Source: Anaerolineae bacterium (lineage in GTDB: Bacteria; Chloroflexota; Anaerolineae; B4-G1; SLSP01). Taken from it: 64,000 nt of DNA. Of this stretch, positions 22,535 to 32,042 are shown piece after piece. The translations under genes and the position numbers were made by a program. Within the stretch, counting starts at the first letter, position 1. Each line of letters opens with the position of its first letter. The notes beneath the pieces were generated by a model. That model was not told the origin of the DNA. It saw nothing but the letters and a program-made list of their open reading frames with translations, and did not search any database. The DNA is taken from positions 7,930 through 71,929 of the forward strand of contig DAOTTS010000118.1 in assembly GCA_034437735.1 (NCBI GenBank), in the 5' to 3' direction.

Positions 22535-24643
22535 ATGACAATCCCAAACGATTACGAATCGCGCATCTATGCGGGCGTGCTAGGCAAGATCATCGGGGTC
22601 TACCTCGGACGGCCTTTCGAGGGCTGGACCTATGAGCGTATTATGGAGGAATTGGGAGAGATCCAGTACTACGTCCACGAACGATTGAACAAGCCCTTGA
22701 TTGTCACTGACGACGATATCTCCGGCACCTTCACCTTCCTGCGCGCCCTGCCGGATCACGGAAATCGCGCCGACATCACACCGGCGGAGATCGGATCGAC
22801 GTGGCTCAATTACATTATTGAGAACAAAACGATCCTCTGGTGGGGCGGGATGGGAAATTCCACCGAACACACCGCATTCCTTCGTCTGCAATCAGGGATC
22901 CCCGCCCCGGAGAGTGGGTCGATGGAGACGAACAGCCGGATCGTGGCGGAGCAGATCGGAGCGCAGATCTTCATCGACGGCTGGGCAATGGTCGCCCCGG
23001 GCGACCCGGAGCTGGCGGCGACCCTGGCGCGGAAAGCCGCTAGCGTCAGCCACGATGGCGAAGCCATCTACGGGGCGCAGGTCCTGGCTGCGATGGAATC
23101 CCTGGCCTTCGTGGAGAACGATCTCAACCGCCTGTTGGATACGGCCGTGACCTTCATCCCTGATGACGCCATCATCTATCGCATGATCGCCGAACTGCGT
23201 GCCCTTCACGAGCAGGAACCTGATTGGCGAAAAGCCCTGAAATGGCTGGCAACTCACTACGGGTACGATACCTACGGCGGTAACGTCCATATCGTACCCA
23301 ACCACGGCCTGATGATCCTCAGCCTTCTCTATGGGGACGACGACTTCCAGAGGACAATGATGATCGTCAATACCGGGGGATGGGATACGGACTGCAACTC
23401 CGGGAACGTCGGATGTCTGATGGGCATCAAAAATGGTCTACCCGGACTGGAAACCGGCCCCGACTATCGAGGCCCGGTAGCGGATCGTCTCTACCTGCCG
23501 ACGGCGGATGGTGGACGGGCGATTACGGACGCGCTGATCGAGACCTATCACATCGTCAACAGCGGGCGGGCCCTCGCCGGGCTCGAGCCTGTCGCGCCCA
23601 AGAACGGAGCACGCTACCACTTCAATATGCCGGGGGCCGTTCAGGGCTTCCTGCCGGACACCGCCATCGAAGCGAAAGGCACCCTGAAGCTTGAGAACGT
23701 CCCTGGACATAGCAAGACCGGGGCGCGTAGCCTCGCTTTCCAATATCAGGACATCGCCCCGGGTCGCGTGGCCCGGGCGGGCACAGCGACGTTCCTGACC
23801 GAGGAAGCTGCCAGCATGCCGGGCTATGGACTCATCTGTTCCCCCACCCTCTATGCCGGACAGACGGTCCGCGCCAGGGTGGAAGCTGACGCCGATAACC
23901 AAGAGCCGGTCACCTGCGGACTCTATCTCGTCACCTATGGACCGGATGACGAGCGGTCCCACCGCCAAGGCCCCTGGGTTGAGATGGAGCCGGGGGAAAC
24001 GCGCGTCTTCGAATGGACAATCGGTCCCACCTATGGCGATCCGATTGCCGAAGTCGGCATAGAGATCCATGCGGAGACCAGAGCCAGCGGCACCCTCTAC
24101 CTCGATACCCTGACCTGGGAGGGGGAACCTGACGCCGACCTGACCCCACCCAGTCACAACGGCACGATGGGGCAGCGCGCGTGGGTGGAGGATATGGACC
24201 ACGTCTGGGCTCGGGGGGGATCCCTTCGCGTGATCCAGGACGAGGGTACCGGGTTGCTCATCCAGGGAACCCGCCGGTGGCAGGACTACACGGTCCGCGC
24301 CAAGCTCTCGCCGCACATGATAGCGTCGGGCGGCATCGCGGCCCGGGTCCAGGGACTGAACCGCTACTATGCCCTACTGCTGGATCGCGATCATCGCGTA
24401 TGCCTCGTGAAATCCAGGGGGACCTGCACCGTCCTCGCGGAGACGGACTTCCCGTGGAACGTCGACGAGGAGTACGAACTCCAGTTATCCGTGCAGGGCG
24501 CCCGATTGCTCGCAAAAGTCGATGGCGAGACACTCTTCGACCTCAAGGATCGCCAAGCCCCCCTGACGGGAGGAGGGATCGCCCTTGTGTGCGAAGAGGG
24601 CCGAATGGACGTCATGAACATAAGCGTTCGTCCGAATGCATAG
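22535..24643 (+). CDS. fusion protein: ADP-ribosylglycohydrolase-fold domain + central beta-rich region + C-terminal DUF1080-like ConA/LamG jelly-roll domain
   Basis: ARH-fold motifs VTDDDISGTF and GGWDTDCNSGNVGCLMG. The first metal-binding motif reads GVYLGRPFEG (GDALG-like with Asp to Val). The C-terminus (WVED...RRWQDYTVRAKL...GGIAARVQGLNRYYALLLD) resembles DUF1080. RBS GAAGGAG. Confidence 0.7.
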   Translation: MTIPNDYESRIYAGVLGKIIGVYLGRPFEGWTYERIMEELGEIQYYVHERLNKPLIVTDDDISGTFTFLRALPDHGNRADITPAEIGSTWLNYIIENKTILWWGGMGNSTEHTAFLRLQSGIPAPESGSMETNSRIVAEQIGAQIFIDGWAMVAPGDPELAATLARKAASVSHDGEAIYGAQVLAAMESLAFVENDLNRLLDTAVTFIPDDAIIYRMIAELRALHEQEPDWRKALKWLATHYGYDTYGGNVHIVPNHGLMILSLLYGDDDFQRTMMIVNTGGWDTDCNSGNVGCLMGIKNGLPGLETGPDYRGPVADRLYLPTADGGRAITDALIETYHIVNSGRALAGLEPVAPKNGARYHFNMPGAVQGFLPDTAIEAKGTLKLENVPGHSKTGARSLAFQYQDIAPGRVARAGTATFLTEEAASMPGYGLICSPTLYAGQTVRARVEADADNQEPVTCGLYLVTYGPDDERSHRQGPWVEMEPGETRVFEWTIGPTYGDPIAEVGIEIHAETRASGTLYLDTLTWEGEPDADLTPPSHNGTMGQRAWVEDMDHVWARGGSLRVIQDEGTGLLIQGTRRWQDYTVRAKLSPHMIASGGIAARVQGLNRYYALLLDRDHRVCLVKSRGTCTVLAETDFPWNVDEEYELQLSVQGARLLAKVDGETLFDLKDRQAPLTGGGIALVCEEGRMDVMNISVRPNA

Positions 24644-24675
24644 GCAGGAAGACCATAGTGACAGAAGGAGCTCAT

Positions 24676-25713
24676 ATGGAAACGATGCTAGCAGCCGTAG
24701 TTGAAGAACCAGGAGCGCTCGGCGTCCGAGAGGTACCTATCGCTGAGATCGGACCGTACGAGGCAAAATGCCGACTGCTCTATGGAGCGACCTGTACCGG
24801 GACCGACCAGCATATCATAGCGGGCCGCTTTCCATGGCCGATCACATATCCTACGATTTTGGGCCACGAAAGCGTCGGAGAGATCATCGAGGTGGGATCC
24901 AAAGTGCGAAACTATCAAATCGGCGACTTGATCTCCCGGGTGGGAGCTCGCCCGCCGGAAGACAGCGACCTCAACGTCAACTGGGGCGGCTTCGCCGAAT
25001 ACGGCATCGCTGTGGACCATCAAGCGATGGCAGAGGATGGCGAGTCCCGATCCCGGTGGGCCCCCTATCGAGTTCACCAGGTCATCCCTCCCGAGATCGA
25101 TCCCAGGGCTGCCACGATGATCATTACGTGGAGGGAAACGCTCAGCACCACGATGCGCCTGGGAATCCAAGCCGGGGATCGCATCCTGGTCGTCGGTTCC
25201 GGCGGCAATGGGCTCGCTTTTGTGGCTCACGCCGCGTACGCCCAGGCCAGCCCGATTGTGATAATCGGGAACGTCAGACGCGAGTCACACGCGATGAGGG
25301 CCGGCGCGACGGGATACGTCGATTACAAAGCTGCCAACGTCGAGGAACAACTCACGGCGCTCAGCCCCGGCGGATTCGATTACGTGATCGATGCAGTAGG
25401 GAAATCGCAGACGGCCGATCAGGTACTCCCCCACCTCAACCCCGGCGGCACGCTCGCGATCTACGGCATTGATGATTATGACGCCACCATCCTCCATCCG
25501 AACCGCGCCCCCGGCACGTTTACCGTCTACAAGGGCGGATACGATGAAGCAGAAGCTCACGAGGAAGTCATCCAACGGATGCTGGGGGGAGCGCTCGACG
25601 CGTCCATCTGGCTGGACTTAGATCACGTCTTTCACCTTCAAACCCTTGGGCAAGCGATTGAAGCGGTGCGTGATCGACAGATGGTCAAAGCCTTGGTCAA
25701 ACTCAACGCCTGA
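24676..25713 (+). CDS. Zn-dependent alcohol dehydrogenase (MDR superfamily)
   Basis: Start at METMLAAV (RBS GAAGGAG). GHESVGEI zinc motif. The long N-terminal extension in the ORF track overlaps the preceding gene and is rejected. Confidence 0.8.
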   Translation: METMLAAVVEEPGALGVREVPIAEIGPYEAKCRLLYGATCTGTDQHIIAGRFPWPITYPTILGHESVGEIIEVGSKVRNYQIGDLISRVGARPPEDSDLNVNWGGFAEYGIAVDHQAMAEDGESRSRWAPYRVHQVIPPEIDPRAATMIITWRETLSTTMRLGIQAGDRILVVGSGGNGLAFVAHAAYAQASPIVIIGNVRRESHAMRAGATGYVDYKAANVEEQLTALSPGGFDYVIDAVGKSQTADQVLPHLNPGGTLAIYGIDDYDATILHPNRAPGTFTVYKGGYDEAEAHEEVIQRMLGGALDASIWLDLDHVFHLQTLGQAIEAVRDRQMVKALVKLNA

Positions 25714-25752
25714 GAATGGACAAATGGATAGCACCAAGCGGATGGGCAAAGT

Positions 25753-25781
25753 TTGACATTTCGATCAAGGTGTGTTAGAGT
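25753..25781 (+). promoter_or_regulatory. strong sigma70 promoter TTGACA-17-TAGAGT with extended -10 TG
   Basis: TTGACA 25753-25758. TGtTAGAGT 25773-25781. No CDS follows within 350 nt on this strand. Confidence 0.6.
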
Positions 25782-25787
25782 TTCAGA

Positions 25788-25975
25788 AATTGTGAAGGAA
25801 CGACCAAACGAAGTGCGCATAGGGATTGGGATGATCAAGATCGAGGTTAGCCGACAGCCTAAGAATAAGCCTCAGCCGCGCCTTTTCCGAGGGCGGGACG
25901 GTTGATGCTGTCTAGCTAACTAAGCTTATTTAGGAGACCAGCCAGCCTACCCGCAAAGTAGGCTGGCTTTTCTTT
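25788..25975 (+). ncRNA. candidate small transcript (about 190 nt) bounded by promoter and intrinsic terminator; may be an sRNA or encode a 24-aa peptide (25831-25905)
   Basis: Promoter at 25753-25781 and terminator at 25941-25975. Long-range pairing TTAGCCGACAGC/GCTGTCTAGCTAA. Small ORF MIKIEVSRQPKNKPQPRLFRGRDG has AGGGA 5 nt upstream. Confidence 0.4.
25941..25975 (+). terminator. rho-independent terminator
   Basis: GCCAGCCTAC-ccgcaaa-GTAGGCTGGC followed by TTTTCTTT. Confidence 0.7.
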
Positions 25976-26148
25976 ATGGTTGACCATTCATATCACAGGC
26001 CATCACGATCGAATGTAACGTAGGGGGAAAATTGCCATCCGGAGGGTATCACCGTTGCTGACGGTGAATACGATTCGATGGCAAGACATGAGAAGATCGT
26101 GAATGGAAGGGTTATTCAGGCAGTCCAAGCAAGGTGAGGAAGGAGAGG

Positions 26149-27357
26149 ATGATGTCTACGAACACCCATACCGACTCAATCACAGCGAACACGATAAGAT
26201 CAGAAAAGAAACACACCCAGCGCTCGAAATCTCGGGTGCAATCTGGACTTGCAGGGGTCGTGGTGGCAGAGAGCGACATCGCCAAGGTCGATGGGGAGCG
26301 GGGGACGCTCAGTTATCGCGGGTATGATATTGGGGATCTCGCGTGCCATTCGACGTTTGAGGAAGTGGTTTACCTGCTCTGGTACGGAGAGCTCCCCACT
26401 CAAGACGCGCTCGACAACTTCGCGGCGAAACTCGCCTCGGAGCGGGAGATCGACGAGACCACGTGGCAGGTCCTGACGATGCTACCCAGCGACGTGGAAC
26501 CTATGGATGCGCTGCGCACCGCGGTATCCACCCTCGCGTGTGCCGACCCGGCCAACGAAAACGGCAAGGTGAGCCACGAGGAGAACCTAAGAAAAGCAAT
26601 GAAACTCGTCGCCAAGTTCCCTACCGTCGTCGCCAGCTACTACCGGCACCTTCAGGGGGAACCCCGCATCCATCCCGATCCTTCGCTAAGTCATGCGGCC
26701 AACTTCCTCTACATGCTCTCGGGCACCCGCCCGGACGAGACCCAAGCCAAGGCGATGGACCTGGCGATGCTTCTCATGGCCGAACATGGATTCAACGCCT
26801 CCACGTTCTCGGCACGCGTCACCGCCTCGACACTCTCGGATATGTACGCAGCGATTACCACCGCGATCGGAACCCTGAAGGGTCCGCTTCACGGCGGCGC
26901 AAATCGACGAGCGATGGAGATGATGCTTGAGATCGGAGAGATCGAGCGTGTAGAGCCCTACATCAAGGAGGCCTTGGCCGCCAAGAAGCGTATTATGGGC
27001 TTCGGGCATCGCGTGTATAAGAAAGCCCCGGATCCGCGTTCGGCGTATCTGAGGGGGCGTCTCTACGAGCTGTGTGCAGATCTCCAGGATTTCCACTTCT
27101 ACAACCTGGCCACTGCCATCGCGGAAACCGTTGAGGCTCAGAAGGGTCTCTATCCCAACGTTGACTTCTATGCCGCGCCGATGCTCTATCTGGTCGGAAT
27201 TCCCCTGGAGCTCTTTGTCACGATCTTTGCGATCAGTCGCATCCCCGGCTGGACGACGCACGTGATGGATCAATATGGGAACAACCGCTTGCTGCGGCCT
27301 CTGAGTGAATATGTAGGTCCAGAAGACTGTGCCTACGTTCCCATTGACCAACGCTAA
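26149..27357 (+). CDS. gltA: citrate synthase
   Basis: GFGHRVYK and HGGAN citrate-synthase signatures. RBS GGAAGGAGAGG. ATG 26149 or 26152. Confidence 0.9.
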   Translation: MMSTNTHTDSITANTIRSEKKHTQRSKSRVQSGLAGVVVAESDIAKVDGERGTLSYRGYDIGDLACHSTFEEVVYLLWYGELPTQDALDNFAAKLASEREIDETTWQVLTMLPSDVEPMDALRTAVSTLACADPANENGKVSHEENLRKAMKLVAKFPTVVASYYRHLQGEPRIHPDPSLSHAANFLYMLSGTRPDETQAKAMDLAMLLMAEHGFNASTFSARVTASTLSDMYAAITTAIGTLKGPLHGGANRRAMEMMLEIGEIERVEPYIKEALAAKKRIMGFGHRVYKKAPDPRSAYLRGRLYELCADLQDFHFYNLATAIAETVEAQKGLYPNVDFYAAPMLYLVGIPLELFVTIFAISRIPGWTTHVMDQYGNNRLLRPLSEYVGPEDCAYVPIDQR

Positions 27358-27414
27358 TACGCGTGAACCGTGTACCAGGCCAACCTATCGATCAGGAACG
27401 GAGGAGCTTTCATC

Positions 27415-29355
27415 ATGGGACAGACCTTAACAGAGAAGATTATCGCAGACCATCGGGTCCAAGGCACGATGGCCCCTGGCGATGAGATAGCAATCACCAT
27501 CGACCACACGCTGACACAGGATGCGACCGGTACGATGGCATGGCTTGAGTTTGAGGCGATGCAGATACCGCGCGTTCAGACCGAGCGCTCGGTCAGTTAC
27601 GTCGATCACAATATGCTTCAGGCTGACTTCCGCAACGCCGACGACCACCGCTATCTCCAGACCGCCGCAGCGCGCTACGGCGCATACTTTTCGCGGCCCG
27701 GCAACGGCATCTGCCACCAGGTGCAGTTGGAGCGATTCAGCGTGCCGGGCAAGACGCTCCTGGGGTCGGACAGCCACACGCCAAACTCCGGGGGGCTTGG
27801 GGCCCTGGCGATCGGTTCCGGCGGACTGGACGTCGCCGTCGCGATGGCCGGGGGGCCTTTCTCTATGACGATGCCCGAGGTGCTCGGCGTCAGGCTCACC
27901 GGGACATTAAGCGATTGGGTCACGGCCAAGGACGTCATCCTGGAGATGTTGCGTCGACTTACCGTCAAGGGCGGGGTTGGCAAAGTCTTGGAGTACTTCG
28001 GACCCGGCGTCGCGACCTTATCCGTCGATGAGCGAGCCACGATCTGCAACATGGGTGCGGAGCTCGGTGCCACAACCTCTATCTTCCCCAGCGACGAGAG
28101 AACCCAGGCCTACCTGCACGCGCAGGGCCGCGCAGAGGCCTGGAAGCCGCTGGCGGCCGACGATGATGCCGAGTACGCCGAGGTTATAGACCTCGATTTA
28201 AGCGCGGTCGAACCGCTCATCGCCACGCCCTCAATGCCGGACAACGTCGTGCCGCTTGAGGAGGTCGCCGGCCAACCGGTCGCACAAGTCTGCATCGGAT
28301 CCTGTGTCAACTCCTCCTATGAGGATCTGGTCAAAGTGGGAGAGATACTCAAGGGCCGGCAGGTCCATCCCGAGGTCAGCTTGACCATTACCCCCGGCAG
28401 CAAGCAGGTCTATACGATGATCGCGGAGAATGGCATCCTGGCCGAGATGATCCGGGCCGGGGCCCGGATCCTCGAATCGGCGTGCGGACCGTGCCTGGGG
28501 ATGGGTCAGGCCCCGGCCACCAGCGTCGCCACACTCCGCTCGTTCAACCGCAACTTCAAGGGGCGCAGCGGCACCGCTGACGATCAATCGTACCTCGCCA
28601 GCCCGGAGACCTGTGCAGCCTCTGCCCTGAGCGGGGTGATTACCGATCCGAGGACCTTGGGCGCGCGGATCCAGGTGATCTCCCCCCTTCATTACGTGAC
28701 GGAGGACACGATGATCATCGCCCCCCCAGCCGTGGAGGAGGCGGAAACGATCCGGGTGATCCGGGGACCCAACATCAAGCCAGTCCCCATCGCGGATCCG
28801 CTCCCCGACGCACTGGACGTGCGTGTGCTCCTCAAGGTCGGAGACAACATCACCACCGATCACATTATGCCCGCCGGCGCAAAGATACTTCCGCTGCGGT
28901 CCAACATCCCCGCCATCGCGGAGTACGTCTTCGCCCGCGTCGACCCGGACTTCGTCGCGCGTGCGAAAGCTTGCGAAAGCGGCGCATTGATCGGCGGAGC
29001 CAACTACGGTCAGGGATCGAGCCGCGAACACGCAGCCCTCGCGCCTATGTACTTGGGCGTCAAAGCCGTGGTCGCCAAGTCCTATTCCCGTATCCACCAC
29101 GCTAACCTGGTCAATATGGGCATGTTGCCCCTGGAATTCATAGAGGAGGATGATTACGAGCGCATCGAACAGGGCGACGTCCTGGAGATCACGGGCGTCA
29201 AACAGGCCCTGGCAAAAGGAAGCAGCCTCAAGGTCCGCAACAAGTCCCGGGACATCACCTACGAGATGCAGATTCAACTCACGGACCGCCAGCGGCGGAT
29301 TCTGAAAGCCGGCGGATTGCTCAACTACTACCGCACCGAGGAGGCCGGCGTATGA
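27415..29355 (+). CDS. acn: aconitate hydratase (646-aa aconitase-family protein with fused swivel domain)
   Basis: Aconitase-family Fe-S ligands CGPCLGMGQ and [14 protein letters not shown]-terminal swivel domain [13 protein letters not shown]. Position between gltA and icd. Start MGQTLTEK with RBS GGAGGAG. Confidence 0.75.
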
Positions 29356-30371
29356 CCCACACCATGACGTTGATCCCGGGGGATGGCATAGGTCCGGAGG
29401 TCACGGGCGCTGCCCGCCGGGTTCTGGAAGCGACCGGGTTGTCCTTGGCATGGGATGTCCAGCACGCGGGTGCATCCGTAATGGATACGGAGGGAACCCC
29501 ACTGCCCAAACGGGTTCTCGAATCGGTTCGAACTCACGGCGTTGCGCTCAAAGGCCCAATCACCACGCCCGTGGGATCGGGATTCCGCAGCGTGAACGTC
29601 GCTATCCGCCGCGCACTGGACCTATACGCAAATCTCCGGCCAACCAAGAGCATCCCTGGACTCCCGCACACGCGGGAGAATGTGGATCTCGTGGTCGTTC
29701 GTGAGAACACGGAGGGCCTTTACGTCGGTATCGAACATGAAGTCATCGCGGGTGAAGCCTCGGAGGCCGTGCGCATCATCACGCGGCGGGGATCCGAGCG
29801 CATTGTGCGCTTCGCCTTCGAATATGCCCGGGCGAACGGACGGCAAAAGGTCACCGCCGTCCATAAGGGCAATATTCTCAAGGTCACAGACGGCCTCTTT
29901 CTCGACGCTGCAAAGCAGGTGGCGGAGGACTATGCCGATATCACCTTTGAGACCCGGATCGTCGACGCGATGTGTATGCAGTTGGTGATGCAACCGGAGG
30001 CGTACGACGTCCTGGTGATGCCCAATCTCTACGGCGACATCGTCAGTGACCTGTGCTCGGGGTTGGTCGGTGGGCTGGGCGTCACGCCGGGTGCCAACCT
30101 GGGCCGCGACCTGGCAGTCTTTGAGCCTGTGCACGGCTCCGCACCGGATATCGCAGGCCTGGATCAAGCGAATCCTTGCGCTGCCATTCTGACAGGCGCG
30201 CTGATGCTTCGCCACCTGGGCGAAGTCGAGACAGCGGCCCGCATCGAGTCGGCCGTCAACGAGGTGCTGAGTGAAGGGCAAGTCATCACCGCTGATCTTA
30301 AGCTTACCGAGGACACCCGAGAGGTGGTCGGCACGCAGGCGATGGCCGACGCCGTCATCGCCAAGCTCTGA
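29352..30371 (+). CDS. icd: isocitrate dehydrogenase (NAD-type, isopropylmalate DH family)
   Basis: Family blocks [17 protein letters not shown] and NLYGDIVSD. The start overlaps the aconitase stop (ATGA). Confidence 0.8.
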
Positions 30372-30566: not shown

Positions 30567-32042
30567 ATGAACGATGAGATTTTTGCCGGTATTGAAGCCC
30601 TGACTTTCGATGATGTCCTCATCGTACCGGGGTATACAGAAGTACTGCCCAACGAGACGGACGTCAGCACCGACTTGACCGCCAAGATCAAACTGTCCAT
30701 CCCCATTATCTCCGCGGCGATGGACACGGTCACCGAAGCACCGATGGGCATTGCGCTGGCTCGTGAGGGCGGGCTGGGCATCATTCACCGCAATATGTCC
30801 CCGACCGACCAAGCGGCCGAGGTTGCCAAAGTCAAGCGATCCCAATCGGGGATGATCGTCGACCCTATCACCCTGCCGCCCACCGCCACGCTTCAGGATG
30901 CCGAGGACATTATGTCGACCTATCACATCAGCGGCGTGCCCATCGTCGACGAGAACAACTACCTGGTCGGAATCCTCACAAATCGCGACTTCCGGTTTGT
31001 CGACCCGGAGGACTATCACCGCTCCGTCACCAAGTTTATGACCAGCGAGGATATCATCTCGGCGCCGGTCGATATCTCCATCGAGGAGGCCAAGCGCTTG
31101 CTCCACAAGCACCGCATCGAGAAGCTGACCCTCGTCGATGAAAACAACATCCTCAAGGGCTTGATCACCGTTAAGGACATCCAAAAGGCGCGGGATTTCC
31201 CCAACGCGACGGCGGATAGTCAGGGCCGGCTGGTGACCGGAGCTGCAGTTGGGGTCGGTGCGGACTTAGAGCACCGTATCGAGCTGCTGACAGATGCCGA
31301 CGTCGACATTGTGGTCATCGACACCGCCCACGGGCACTCGGCCGGCGTCCTGACAGCCGTGCGCCGTATCCGGAAGCTGGCGCCGGATCTCCCGATTATC
31401 GCAGGGAACGTCGTCACAAAGAAAGGGACGGAGGCCCTGATCGAAGCAGGAGCGAACGTGATCAAGGTCGGGGTTGGCGCGGGCTCGATCTGTACGACGC
31501 GCATTGTGTCCGGTGCAGGGATGCCTCAGCTCACCGCCATCCACAACTGCGTCGCCGCCGCCAAACCTTACGACGTCCCCGTCATCGCCGACGGCGGTAT
31601 CAAGTACAGCGGCGATATCGTCAAAGCGATCGCGGCCGGCGCCCATCTGGTGATGCTCGGCAGTATGCTCGCGGGACTCGACGAGGCACCGGGCGACGTC
31701 GTCTACTACGACGGACGGCGTTTTAAGGAGTACCGAGGGATGGGAAGCGTGGCAGCGATGCGGGGATACGGAAGAGACCGCTACGGGTCGGGACAGGACA
31801 AGAGTGGCAAGCTGGTCCCCGAGGGCGTTGAGGGCCGCGTCCCCTATAAGGGAACGGTTCATGACTATATCTACCAGCTCATTGGCGGGTTGCGCTCAGG
31901 ATTGGGCTACGCGGGGGCAGCCAATCTGGCGGAGCTCCGCGAGAAAGCGCAGTTCACCCGCATCACCCAGGCCGGCCTGATCGAGAGCCATCCCCACGAC
32001 GTCATCATCACCAAGGAGCCCCCGAATTATCAGGTGGGCTGA
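30567..32042 (+). CDS. guaB: IMP dehydrogenase
   Basis: N-terminal [15 protein letters not shown]. Tandem CBS domains. Catalytic-loop region [15 protein letters not shown]. Confidence 0.9.

What the first reader, a model, noticed from the sequence alone, without database searches (positions are those of the whole stretch)
25753..25975. Orphan promoter-to-terminator unit (about 190 nt) between an alcohol dehydrogenase gene and gltA: candidate sRNA or 24-codon small ORF
- A near-consensus extended -10 promoter (TTGACA-17-TGtTAGAGT) starts a transcript on the plus strand.
- It ends at a canonical intrinsic terminator (10-bp GC stem plus TTTTCTTT) about 160 nt before the gltA RBS.
- No annotated ORF of at least 60 aa occupies it.
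- The interval contains a long-range helix (TTAGCCGACAGC/GCTGTCTAGCTAA) enclosing further pairings.
- It also contains a possible 24-codon ORF (ATG 25831, AGGGA 5 nt upstream; MIKIEVSRQPKNKPQPRLFRGRDG).
- Size and architecture are compatible with a housekeeping sRNA (6S-like length) or a small basic peptide gene. I cannot classify it from sequence alone.
Basis: seen in the sequence. Interest (0 to 1): 0.65.

Follow-up and report, generated by a model that had tools for sequence, protein, structure and literature searches.

The report
Leader-peptide attenuator of citrate synthase operon
The promoter-to-terminator unit is most likely not a free-standing small RNA but a switch in front of the citrate synthase–aconitase–isocitrate dehydrogenase operon, in which translation of a short proline- and glutamine-rich peptide probably decides whether transcription stops or continues.

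Summary
A near-consensus promoter (25753-25781), a 24-codon ORF (25831-25905), a long-range helix and a strong intrinsic terminator (25940-25975) are all present. Nothing matches Rfam.

The unit is not orphan. In 15 related Anaerolineae (Chloroflexota) assemblies it always sits directly upstream of gltA-acn-icd, whatever gene lies upstream. No promoter-like site lies between the terminator and gltA in any of the 13 lineages where that spacer could be scanned.

The ATG is invariant, exactly 7 codons before an invariant CGA-CAG-CCU (Arg-Gln-Pro), across diverged sequence without indels. The frame is open in every lineage. In distant relatives the homologous stop switches among TGA, TAA and TAG.

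A conserved segment, GGUUGAUGCUGU, can pair with the ORF (P1/P2) or with the terminator's 5' arm (CAGCCAGCC). This gives the classic 1:2 / 2:3 / 3:4 attenuator layout.

Best reading (about 0.6): a ribosome-mediated transcription attenuator. I infer that it senses supply of glutamate-family amino acids made from 2-oxoglutarate, the operon's product. That would be a new member of a known kind.

Weak points: a poor Shine-Dalgarno sequence, Gln/Pro codons that coincide with the pairing motif, no clear antiterminator in one clade, and no experimental data.

The parts
25753..25781 (+). Sigma-70-type promoter: -35 TTGACA (25753-58), 17-nt spacer ending TGt (extended -10), -10 TAGAGT (25776-81)
   Evidence: 10/12 match, TG present. 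The same 29-nt architecture, TTGAC-N-TGnTA(G/A)A(G/A)T, is conserved in all 15 related lineages.
25788..25830 (+). 5' UTR of the leader. The TSS near 25788 is inferred from -10 spacing, not mapped.
   Evidence: Sequence and length vary among relatives, 30-51 nt with indels. The Shine-Dalgarno match is only weak: AGGGA, -4.6 kcal/mol.
25831..25905 (+). Leader ORF, 24 codons plus TGA: MIKIEVSRQPKNKPQPRLFRGRDG
   Evidence: The ATG is invariant and lies exactly 21 nt before the invariant CGACAGCC in 13/13 core sequences, although nt 4-21 have diverged without indels. Frame 0 has 0 stops, against 13 and 29 in the other two frames. The stop switches among TGA, TAA and TAG at the homologous GGN-stop site in distant relatives.
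25845..25858 (+). Region 1a: 5' strand of helix P1 (GGUUAGCCGACAGC), covering codons 5-10 including Arg-Gln-Pro
   Evidence: MFE folds. Consensus fold and pair counts: 90.5% of cells paired and 3 pairs with compensatory changes.
25872..25905 (+). Helix P2. The 5' strand UCAGCCG... spans codons 14-19 (Pro-Gln-Pro-Arg...), there is a variable apical hairpin, and the 3' strand ends in CGGUUGA.
   Evidence: P2a cells are 86% paired. The apical part is not alignable across lineages (54.9% paired).
25895..25913 (+). Region 2: GGGACGGUUGAUGCUGUCU, the shared strand. It pairs either with region 1 (P1 inner plus P2a) or with the terminator 5' arm. It contains the stop codon.
   Evidence: UUGAUGCUGU is nearly invariant at nucleotide level although it is read in different frames. 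The antiterminator pairing is 92.6% paired across 13 sequences, with 2 covarying pairs. The duplex is -20.3 kcal/mol, matched by 6/500 shuffles.
25907..25921 (+). 3' strand of helix P1 (GCUGUCUAGCUAACU). It carries stop codons in all three frames.
25935..25952 (+). Region 3: AGACCAGCCAGCCUACCC, the partner of region 2 in the antiterminator. It overlaps the terminator 5' arm.
   Evidence: Ribosome-masked folds of the transcript truncated before the 3' arm. Pair counts.
25940..25975 (+). Intrinsic terminator (regions 3:4): 11-bp stem AGCCAGCCUAC/GUAGGCUGGCU, loop CCGCAAA, then UUUCUUU
   Evidence: -20.4 kcal/mol. The stem sequence is invariant across lineages with 54-100% gltA identity, apart from one compensatory G-C to A-U change.
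25976..26151 (+). Structured spacer and gltA 5' UTR, with the strong SD AAGGAGAGG at 26140-48. It contains no promoter-like site.
   Evidence: A conserved nested stem (26000-26010 with 26095-26106; 26029-26042 with 26074-26089) is seen in the four close relatives.
26152..27357 (+). Citrate synthase (gltA/citZ type II), the first regulated gene
   Evidence: Pfam PF00285 at 7e-130 and TIGR01800. A 401-aa product identical to a database protein confirms the start.
27415..29355 (+). Aconitate hydratase (646-aa type)
   Evidence: The start is inferred from the 646-aa homologues and the SD.
29352..30371 (+). Isocitrate dehydrogenase. Its start overlaps the acn stop, so the two are co-transcribed.

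Best explanation
The unit is the 5' leader of the gltA-acn-icd operon and works as a ribosome-mediated, leader-peptide transcription attenuator.

Proposed sequence of events:
1. Transcription starts about 7 nt after the conserved promoter (inferred).
2. A 24-codon ORF is translated while RNA polymerase transcribes the leader (inferred).
3. The ORF's Arg-Gln-Pro (codons 8-10) and Lys-Pro-Gln-Pro (codons 13-16) lie on the 5' strands of helices P1 and P2 (region 1). These strands pair with the conserved segment GGGACGGUUGAUGCUGUCU around the stop codon (region 2).
4. If no ribosome is present, or the ribosome runs smoothly to the stop codon and covers region 2, the downstream arms CAGCCAGCCUAC / GUAGGCUGGCU (regions 3:4) fold into the terminator. 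Transcription then ends at about 25975, releasing a roughly 187-nt RNA.
5. If the ribosome stalls on the Gln/Pro/Arg codons, region 1 is masked and region 2 stays free. Region 2 pairs with region 3 as that region emerges, in a 15-bp antiterminator of about -20 kcal/mol.
6. The terminator cannot form, and polymerase continues into citrate synthase, aconitase and isocitrate dehydrogenase.

The signal (inferred). These three enzymes make 2-oxoglutarate, the precursor of glutamate and hence of Gln, Pro and Arg. I therefore infer that the signal is a shortage of charged tRNA for these glutamate-family amino acids.

Shown here: the anatomy, its conservation, linkage to gltA, the coding signature of the ORF, and both mutually exclusive pairings. 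Inferred: that the ORF is translated, that stalling drives read-through, and which amino acids are sensed.
For: Cis-linkage to gltA
- The unit lies directly upstream of gltA-acn-icd in all 15 lineages recovered. The upstream neighbour varies: a Zn-ADH gene, a 116-aa DsrE-like ORF, or a 765-aa protein gene.
- Full-length covariance-model hits above 95 bits occur only next to gltA. There is a single copy in the 64-kb window.
- No sigma-70-like site occurs in any of the 13 terminator-to-gltA spacers that could be scanned (57-181 nt), while the upstream promoter scores 9-11/12 in all lineages.

Coding signature of the ORF
- The ATG is invariant and sits 21 nt before CGA-CAG-CCU, across variable sequence with no indels.
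- Stops per frame are 0, 13 and 29 in frames 0, +1 and +2.
- The internal indel is 3 nt.
- The homologous GGN-stop is TGA, TAA or TAG in different relatives.
- Lineages with a +1 shift still terminate within 12 nt, always 20-36 nt before the terminator stem.

Alternative structures
- In the terminating state (P1, P2, terminator), 87.8% of cells pair, against at most 47% in slid controls, with 4 covarying pairs.
- In the antiterminator, 92.6% pair, against at most 53%, with 2 covarying pairs.
- In L220 and L221, a G-to-A change in region 3 is matched by C-to-U in the terminator 3' arm. The same change turns a U-G into a U-A with region 2.
- When the nascent transcript is folded with a ribosome masked at codons 8-16, region 2 switches from region 1 to region 3 in window, L093, L219, L162, L169, L186, L220 and L221. 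With no ribosome, or a ribosome at the stop codon, region 3 is left free.
- Energies in the window are -32.8 (1:2), -19.8 (2:3) and -20.4 (3:4) kcal/mol.

Peptide composition
- Pro is 17.2% against 5.1% in window proteins, Gln 11.3% against 2.8%, and Arg 11.0% against 6.0%.
- The conserved CGA and CCU are minor codons, 10% and 14% of their families.

Other
- The invariance of the terminator stem is unusual for a plain terminator. It is expected if each arm must match a second partner.
- Three distant lineages carry two such units in tandem before gltA.
Against: - The ORF has only a weak or absent Shine-Dalgarno match: -1.1 to -6.6 kcal/mol. The window background mean is -2.9, and gltA, acn and icd score -9.4 to -11.6.
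- The Gln/Pro codons are not tandem runs, and they coincide with the CAGCC/AAGCC pairing motif. Their enrichment could therefore be a by-product of RNA constraints.
- Open-frame probability in shuffles is 0.13-0.58 per lineage, so openness alone is only moderate evidence.
- The 2:3 duplex is no better than shuffles in L162, L169 and L186. It is weak (-8 kcal/mol) in the L088/L086 clade, where I found no convincing antiterminator.
- Most paired columns never vary, so covariation support is thin.
- All sequences are from uncultured metagenome assemblies. There is no transcript, ribosome or physiological evidence.
- Terminator/antiterminator logic fits a ligand- or protein-controlled switch equally well.
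Confidence: 0.6

Rival explanations
1. The unit is a translation-independent cis-regulatory leader. The P1/P2 domain would be an aptamer for a metabolite (for example 2-oxoglutarate, glutamate, glutamine or citrate), or a binding site for an RNA-binding protein that recognises the repeated (C/A)AGCC motifs. Binding would stabilise P1/P2, free the terminator arms and stop transcription. Without the ligand, region 2 would pair with region 3 and transcription would read through. The ORF would be incidental.
For: - The same 1:2 / 2:3 / 3:4 architecture and gltA linkage apply.
- The Shine-Dalgarno match is weak.
- UUGAUGCUGU is conserved at nucleotide level while being read in different frames.
- There are five or six (C/A)AGCC repeats.
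- The conserved peptide residues coincide with paired nucleotides.
Against: - The ATG is invariant at a fixed 21-nt distance across diverged sequence. Only one frame is open, the indel is 3 nt, and the stop codons interchange.
- The junction between P1 and P2 (CUAAGAAUAAGCCU, against CUAGCAAGCCG, CUAUCCAGCCU and CUGGCAAGCUG in relatives) and the P2 apex both vary in sequence and length. No conserved unpaired pocket remains, which is unlike known aptamers.
- No Rfam riboswitch matches, even at E<=10.
Confidence: 0.2
2. The unit is a free-standing gene: either a trans-acting or housekeeping small RNA of about 187 nt or a small basic protein. It would merely neighbour gltA, which would be expressed from its own unrecognised promoter.
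For: - It has its own strong promoter and strong terminator.
- The core sequence is highly conserved.
- Terminated attenuator RNAs and their peptides can act in trans in other bacteria: rnTrpL and peTrpL in Sinorhizobium (PMC7968998, PMC7298713, abstracts seen).
Against: - Linkage to gltA is strict and independent of the upstream gene.
- No promoter-like site occurs in any of the 13 scanned spacers, some only 57-63 nt long.
- No 6S or other Rfam match.
- Peptide differences between close pairs (L169 and L186, L093 and L219) are mostly non-synonymous, and the C-terminus changes frame. This argues against a protein under purifying selection.
- Tandem duplication in front of the same gene is typical of cis-regulators.
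Confidence: 0.1
3. The ribosome-dependent attenuator responds to general translation speed or to proline-specific elongation capacity (for example EF-P activity), not to glutamate-family amino-acid supply.
For: - Pro is the most enriched residue at 17.2%.
- Pro-Pro motifs occur in L095, L162, L220, L221 and L001-1.
- From my own knowledge: the Salmonella mgtL and mgtP leader ORFs use proline codons in this way.
Against: - Pro-Pro is absent from the window peptide and from most lineages.
- Gln is enriched about fourfold alongside Pro.
- The regulated enzymes specifically supply the Glu/Gln/Pro/Arg precursor. This link rests on established pathway knowledge.
Confidence: 0.1

Closest known systems
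Classical leader-peptide attenuators of amino-acid biosynthetic operons (E. coli trpL; his, leu, thr, ilv and pheA leaders; Rfam Trp_leader, His_leader, Leu_leader, Thr_leader)
   Same: - A promoter-proximal short ORF, with an intrinsic terminator before the first structural gene.
- Four segments with 1:2, 2:3 and 3:4 pairings of comparable energies. Here they are -32.8, -19.8 and -20.4 kcal/mol.
- The stop codon is placed so that a terminating ribosome covers region 2.
- The peptide is poorly conserved apart from particular codons.
   Different: - No sequence or Rfam similarity.
- Found in Chloroflexota (Anaerolineae) rather than Proteobacteria, Actinobacteria or Firmicutes.
- It controls central-metabolism genes (citrate synthase, aconitase, IDH), not a dedicated amino-acid pathway.
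- The candidate sensor codons (Gln, Pro, Arg) are interspersed rather than in a tandem run, and they double as the pairing motif CAGCC.
- The Shine-Dalgarno match is weak.
- The stop codon lies inside region 2, and some lineages carry tandem units.
Proline-codon leader ORFs mgtL (mgtA) and mgtP (mgtCBR) of Salmonella (recalled from my own knowledge, not checked here)
   Same: A short leader ORF whose proline codons couple ribosome progress to a choice between alternative stem-loops. That choice decides whether transcription continues into the downstream genes.
   Different: - Different phylum and different target genes (Mg2+ transport and virulence).
- No sequence relation.
- The mgtA leader acts through Rho-dependent termination and also senses Mg2+, whereas here there is a canonical intrinsic terminator.
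- Here Gln is enriched together with Pro.
Regulation of the Bacillus subtilis citZ-icd-mdh and citB genes by CcpC/CcpA, and by aconitase binding to the citZ leader RNA (recalled from my own knowledge)
   Same: It has the same physiological target: the citrate-to-2-oxoglutarate branch, tuned to glutamate-family supply, with an RNA-level component in the citZ leader.
   Different: The Bacillus mechanism uses DNA-binding repressors and an IRP-like aconitase. Here the aconitase is the 646-aa non-IRP type, and the leader carries an ORF plus a terminator/antiterminator pair.
Attenuator-derived sRNA rnTrpL and leader peptide peTrpL of Sinorhizobium meliloti (PMC7968998, PMC7298713)
   Same: In that system it has a second life in trans.
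   Different: No evidence here for any trans function, and no sequence similarity.

Membership tests
Ribosome-mediated (leader-peptide) transcription attenuator | Short ORF with a start codon in the 5' leader, conserved as an ORF | tested here: met
   The ATG is invariant and sits 21 nt before CGACAGCC. Stops per frame are 0, 13 and 29. The stop interchanges among TGA, TAA and TAG.
Ribosome-mediated (leader-peptide) transcription attenuator | Functional ribosome-binding site for the leader ORF | tested here: inconclusive
   Anti-SD duplex energies are -1.1 to -6.6 kcal/mol. The background mean is -2.9, and the downstream genes score -9.4 to -11.6.
Ribosome-mediated (leader-peptide) transcription attenuator | Intrinsic terminator between the leader ORF and the first structural gene, with no separate promoter for that gene | tested here: met
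   Terminator. No promoter-like site in 13 spacers.
Ribosome-mediated (leader-peptide) transcription attenuator | Mutually exclusive 1:2 / 2:3 / 3:4 pairings, with region 1 inside the ORF | tested here: met
   Met in the core group of 13 sequences. Not evident in the L088/L086 clade.
Ribosome-mediated (leader-peptide) transcription attenuator | Cluster of codons for the amino acid(s) whose supply the operon controls | tested here: inconclusive
   Pro is enriched 3.4-fold, Gln 4.1-fold and Arg 1.8-fold, and Arg-Gln-Pro is invariant. But the codons are interspersed and coincide with the CAGCC pairing motif.
Ribosome-mediated (leader-peptide) transcription attenuator | Read-through depends on translation and on charged-tRNA level | not testable with these tools
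   This needs reporter assays, in vitro coupled assays or ribosome profiling.
Riboswitch | Conserved ligand-binding core with invariant unpaired nucleotides; match to a described family | tested here: not met
   No Rfam hit. The junction and the P2 apex vary in sequence and length. An undescribed aptamer cannot be excluded.
6S RNA | A rod of about 180-200 nt with a large central bubble; match to the Rfam 6S models | tested here: not met
   No 6S hit at E<=10. The fold is a branched domain plus a terminator.
Independent trans-acting sRNA gene | Own promoter and terminator, with the neighbouring gene expressed independently | tested here: not met
   The promoter and terminator are present. But linkage to gltA is strict and no gltA promoter is found.
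Small protein gene under purifying selection | Peptide sequence conserved beyond the nucleotide-level constraints | tested here: not met
   Changes between close pairs are mostly non-synonymous. The C-terminal frame shifts in L169, L186 and L221.

The most novel reading that the evidence does not exclude
The ORF and the RNA together form a metabolite sensor rather than a tRNA-charging sensor. One form would be an arrest peptide of the TnaC or SpeFL type: the conserved Arg-Gln-Pro...Lys-Pro-Gln-Pro...Arg-x-Gly-stop nascent chain would stall the ribosome when it binds a nitrogen- or carbon-status metabolite such as glutamine or 2-oxoglutarate. The other form would be an undescribed riboswitch in which the P1/P2 domain binds such a metabolite. 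Either would give direct RNA- or ribosome-level sensing of TCA-cycle or nitrogen status.
Probability: 0.12. Interest if true: 0.85.

Novelty: new member of a known kind. Interest (0 to 1): 0.58.

Why it matters
Leader-peptide attenuation is textbook for dedicated amino-acid operons. Three full-text searches here found no example governing entry into the TCA cycle, none in Chloroflexota, and none built on Gln/Pro codons. Rfam also has no matching family.

If the reading is right:
- In these mostly uncultured Anaerolineae, the citrate synthase–aconitase–IDH branch is regulated like a glutamate-family biosynthetic pathway. Carbon flux to 2-oxoglutarate would be coupled directly to the translational demand for Gln, Pro and Arg.
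- It gives a compact natural switch of about 190 nt, and a covariance-model seed for annotating an intergenic element that gene callers miss.
- It offers a testable case of how attenuators evolve: tandem duplication, frame drift at the 3' end, and co-constraint of all four pairing segments.

Tried and rejected
- Rfam at gathering thresholds on the whole window, and at E<=10 on 25650-26200, gave only chance hits. This rules out 6S RNA, known leaders, T-box and known riboswitches.
- BLASTN and nhmmer of the intergenic region against 80 GTDB gltA loci (45-58% protein identity) found nothing. The genome scan therefore only established the phylum. Close relatives had to be reached through the protein database and contig look-ups.
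- The metagenome pattern scan for the terminator stem returned mostly unrelated hairpins. Only 6 of the 120 matched stretches were true units.
- An antiterminator made by the ORF motif CAGCCUA pairing with the terminator 3' arm (1:4) was considered and rejected. A stalled ribosome would mask it, and the local terminator would out-compete it.
- A second promoter in the spacer (TTGACC at 25981) was checked. It has no usable -10 and is not conserved.
- Significance of the single-sequence fold is weak (z = -1.8).
- Openness of the frame alone is only moderate evidence.
- Three full-text literature searches found no description of such an element.
Full report
**1. Observation**

- The consensus scan finds one plus-strand sigma-70-like promoter in 24500-27500: TTGACA-17-TAGAGT preceded by TG, at 25753-25781, scoring 10/12.
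- It also finds one plus-strand terminator-like site: an 11-bp stem with 7 G-C pairs at 25940-25968, followed by TTTCTTT.
- The 24-codon ORF runs from ATG 25831 to TGA 25903-05. The long-range helix (25845-58 with 25907-21) appears in the minimum-free-energy fold.
- Rfam gives no hit at gathering thresholds in the whole window. At E<=10 around the element it gives only three chance hits.
- The single-sequence fold is not remarkable (z = -1.8). The case therefore rests on comparison with relatives.

**2. Context and relatives**

The genes downstream are citrate synthase, a 646-aa aconitase and isocitrate dehydrogenase, tightly packed on the same strand. Upstream lie an ADP-ribosylglycohydrolase gene and the ADH gene.

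The best species-representative genomes are Chloroflexota/Anaerolineae MAGs with only 56-58% citrate synthase identity. Plain sequence searches of their intergenic regions found nothing.

The protein database holds closer citrate synthases at 60-91% identity. Their contigs, plus one metagenome pattern scan, gave 15 lineages with a homologous unit: window, L081-L085, L197, L093/L094, L219, L095, L162, L169, L186, L220, L221, L088, L086.
- In every case the unit lies immediately upstream of gltA-acn(-icd).
- The gene further upstream differs: ADH, a 116-aa DsrE-like ORF, or a 765-aa protein gene.
- A covariance model built from 12 units finds one copy in the 64-kb window.
- It finds full-length hits only next to gltA among 186 further loci.
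- It finds weaker hits upstream of gltA in the distant MAGs L001-L004.
- None of the 13 terminator-to-gltA spacers that could be scanned (57-181 nt) contains a promoter-like site. The promoter upstream of the unit scores 9-11/12 in all lineages.

The unit is therefore the leader of the gltA operon, not an orphan.

**3. The ORF looks translated**

- In the 13 core sequences the ATG is invariant. It lies exactly 21 nt before an invariant CGA-CAG-CCU (Arg-Gln-Pro). The intervening 18 nt have diverged almost completely, without indels.
- Across 12 lineages the ORF frame has no stop codon. The other two frames have 13 and 29.
- The one internal length difference is 3 nt.
- In distant relatives the homologous GGN-stop is TGA (window, L001 unit 2), TAA (L004) or TAG (L001 unit 1, L003).
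- Three lineages carry a +1 shift near the 3' end. They still terminate within 12 nt.
- Every ORF ends 20-36 nt before the terminator stem. In the window, all three frames meet a stop inside the P1 3' strand.

Caveats:
- Openness alone is only moderately improbable, 0.13-0.58 per lineage in shuffles.
- The Shine-Dalgarno match is weak: -1.1 to -6.6 kcal/mol, against -9.4 to -11.6 for gltA, acn and icd.
- Outside the segments constrained at RNA level the peptide drifts freely. It is unlikely to be a functional protein.

**4. Alternative RNA structures**

Three segments are nearly invariant:
- (G)ACAGCC and (A/C)AGCC motifs within the ORF (region 1);
- GGUUGAUGCUGU around the stop codon (region 2);
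- the terminator arms CAGCCAGCCUAC and GUAGGCUGGCU (regions 3 and 4).

Region 2 pairs with region 1 to form P1-inner and P2a. It can instead pair with region 3: GCUG with CAGC and GGUUG with CAGCC, extended at both ends to 15 bp in the window.

Pair counts on 13 sequences:

| State | Cells paired | Slid controls | Pairs with compensatory change |
|---|---|---|---|
| Terminating (P1, P2, terminator) | 87.8% | at most 47% | 4 |
| Antiterminator | 92.6% | at most 53% | 2 |

In L220 and L221, a G-to-A change in region 3 is compensated by C-to-U in region 4. The same change converts a U-G pair with region 2 into U-A.

I folded the nascent transcript truncated before region 4:
- With no ribosome, P1 and P2 form and region 3 stays free.
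- With a ribosome footprint at codons 8-16, region 2 pairs with region 3 in eight lineages.
- With the ribosome at the stop codon, region 2 is masked.

Window energies are -32.8 (1:2), -19.8 (2:3) and -20.4 (3:4) kcal/mol.

The need for each arm to fit two partners explains why the terminator stem is invariant across lineages whose citrate synthases are only 54-64% identical to the window's.

Weak points:
- The 2:3 duplex beats shuffles clearly in window, L219, L221, L220 and L095. It does not in L162, L169 or L186.
- It is weak in L088 and L086, where I could not identify an antiterminator.
- Most paired columns never vary.

**5. Mechanism and signal**

The anatomy matches a classical ribosome-mediated attenuator.
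- Translation through to the stop, or no translation at all, gives termination at about 25975.
- Stalling on region 1 gives antitermination and operon expression.

The candidate sensor codons are those on region 1: Arg-Gln-Pro (codons 8-10) and Lys-Pro-Gln-Pro (codons 13-16).
- Across 17 leader peptides, Pro is 17.2% (5.1% in window proteins), Gln 11.3% (2.8%) and Arg 11.0% (6.0%).
- The conserved CGA and CCU are minor codons in this genome.
- Citrate synthase, aconitase and IDH make 2-oxoglutarate, the skeleton of glutamate and hence of Gln, Pro and Arg (established pathway knowledge).

I therefore infer that the leader raises flux to 2-oxoglutarate when glutamate-family aminoacyl-tRNAs run low. 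This last step is the least secure. The Gln-Pro codons (CAG CCN) are also the pairing motif, so their enrichment may be structural.

**6. Rivals**

- A riboswitch or protein-binding leader shares the terminator/antiterminator logic and would explain the weak SD. It does not explain the start and stop codon behaviour. It also lacks a conserved unpaired core, because the junction and P2 apex vary.
- A free-standing sRNA or small-protein gene is contradicted by the strict gltA linkage, the absence of a gltA promoter, the drift of the peptide, and tandem duplication of the unit before gltA in L001-L003.
- A general translation-speed or proline/EF-P sensor remains possible.

**7. Comparison and novelty**

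The element works like the trp, his, leu, thr and related leaders but shares no sequence or Rfam similarity with them.

It differs from them in several ways:
- phylum;
- regulated genes, which belong to central metabolism;
- interspersed Gln/Pro/Arg codons that double as the pairing motif;
- a stop codon inside region 2;
- tandem copies in some lineages.

Three full-text searches found no description of a leader peptide or attenuator for citrate synthase or in Chloroflexota. One survey found in those searches (PMC2965389) said that until then leader-peptide systems had been shown only in Proteobacteria and Actinobacteria, and itself reported one in Firmicutes.

I class it as a new member of a known kind.

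**8. Verdict**

| Claim | Confidence |
|---|---|
| Cis-regulatory attenuator of gltA-acn-icd | about 0.85 |
| Ribosome-mediated | about 0.6 |
| Senses Gln/Pro/Arg supply | about 0.35 |

Interest: 0.58.

Noticed in passing
window 25976-26139: The spacer between the attenuator terminator and the gltA ribosome-binding site folds into a nested stem-loop. The stems are 26000-26010 with 26095-26106 (CCAUCACGAUC/GAUCGUGAAUGG) and 26029-26042 with 26074-26089 (UUGCCAUC/GAUGGCAA). It is conserved with compensatory changes in the four close relatives. Its function is unknown; it may be a 5' stabiliser or a second regulatory domain.
   Followed up: partly
L001:499-865, L002:409-714, L003:2600-2920: Distant Anaerolineae MAGs carry two tandem sORF-plus-terminator units between a single promoter and gltA. 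An example pair of peptides is MMNIRRNNAPQQPQNPPQGGAG and MNFNRVYPYPSNQQNPQPNLRKEGG in L001. Tandem attenuators suggest a sharper or two-input response.
   Followed up: partly
L081:2221-2571, L084:2214-2564, L095:1365-1715: A 116-aa ORF with a weak DsrE match sits between the upstream gene and the leader unit in several relatives. It is absent from the window, which shows that the leader travels with gltA rather than with the upstream gene.
   Followed up: no
window 25903-25921: All three reading frames meet a stop codon within the P1 3' strand: UGA, UAG and UAA in UUGAUGCUGUCUAGCUAAC. A frameshifted ribosome therefore cannot run into the terminator.
   Followed up: partly
L088:177-337, L086:2483-2652: A divergent clade keeps the promoter, a longer Gln/Pro/Asn-rich ORF (32-33 codons) and the identical terminator stem. 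Homologous nucleotides near the 3' end of the ORF are read in different frames in the two members, and no convincing antiterminator was found.
   Followed up: partly
window 25753-25905: The mechanical ORF list shows a 50-aa TTG-initiated ORF in the same frame as the 24-codon ORF. Its start is the -35 hexamer itself, upstream of the predicted transcription start, so it is an artefact of ORF listing.
   Followed up: yes
window 30567-32042: IMP dehydrogenase (guaB) follows icd after a 195-nt gap on the same strand. Whether it belongs to the same transcript was not examined.
   Followed up: no
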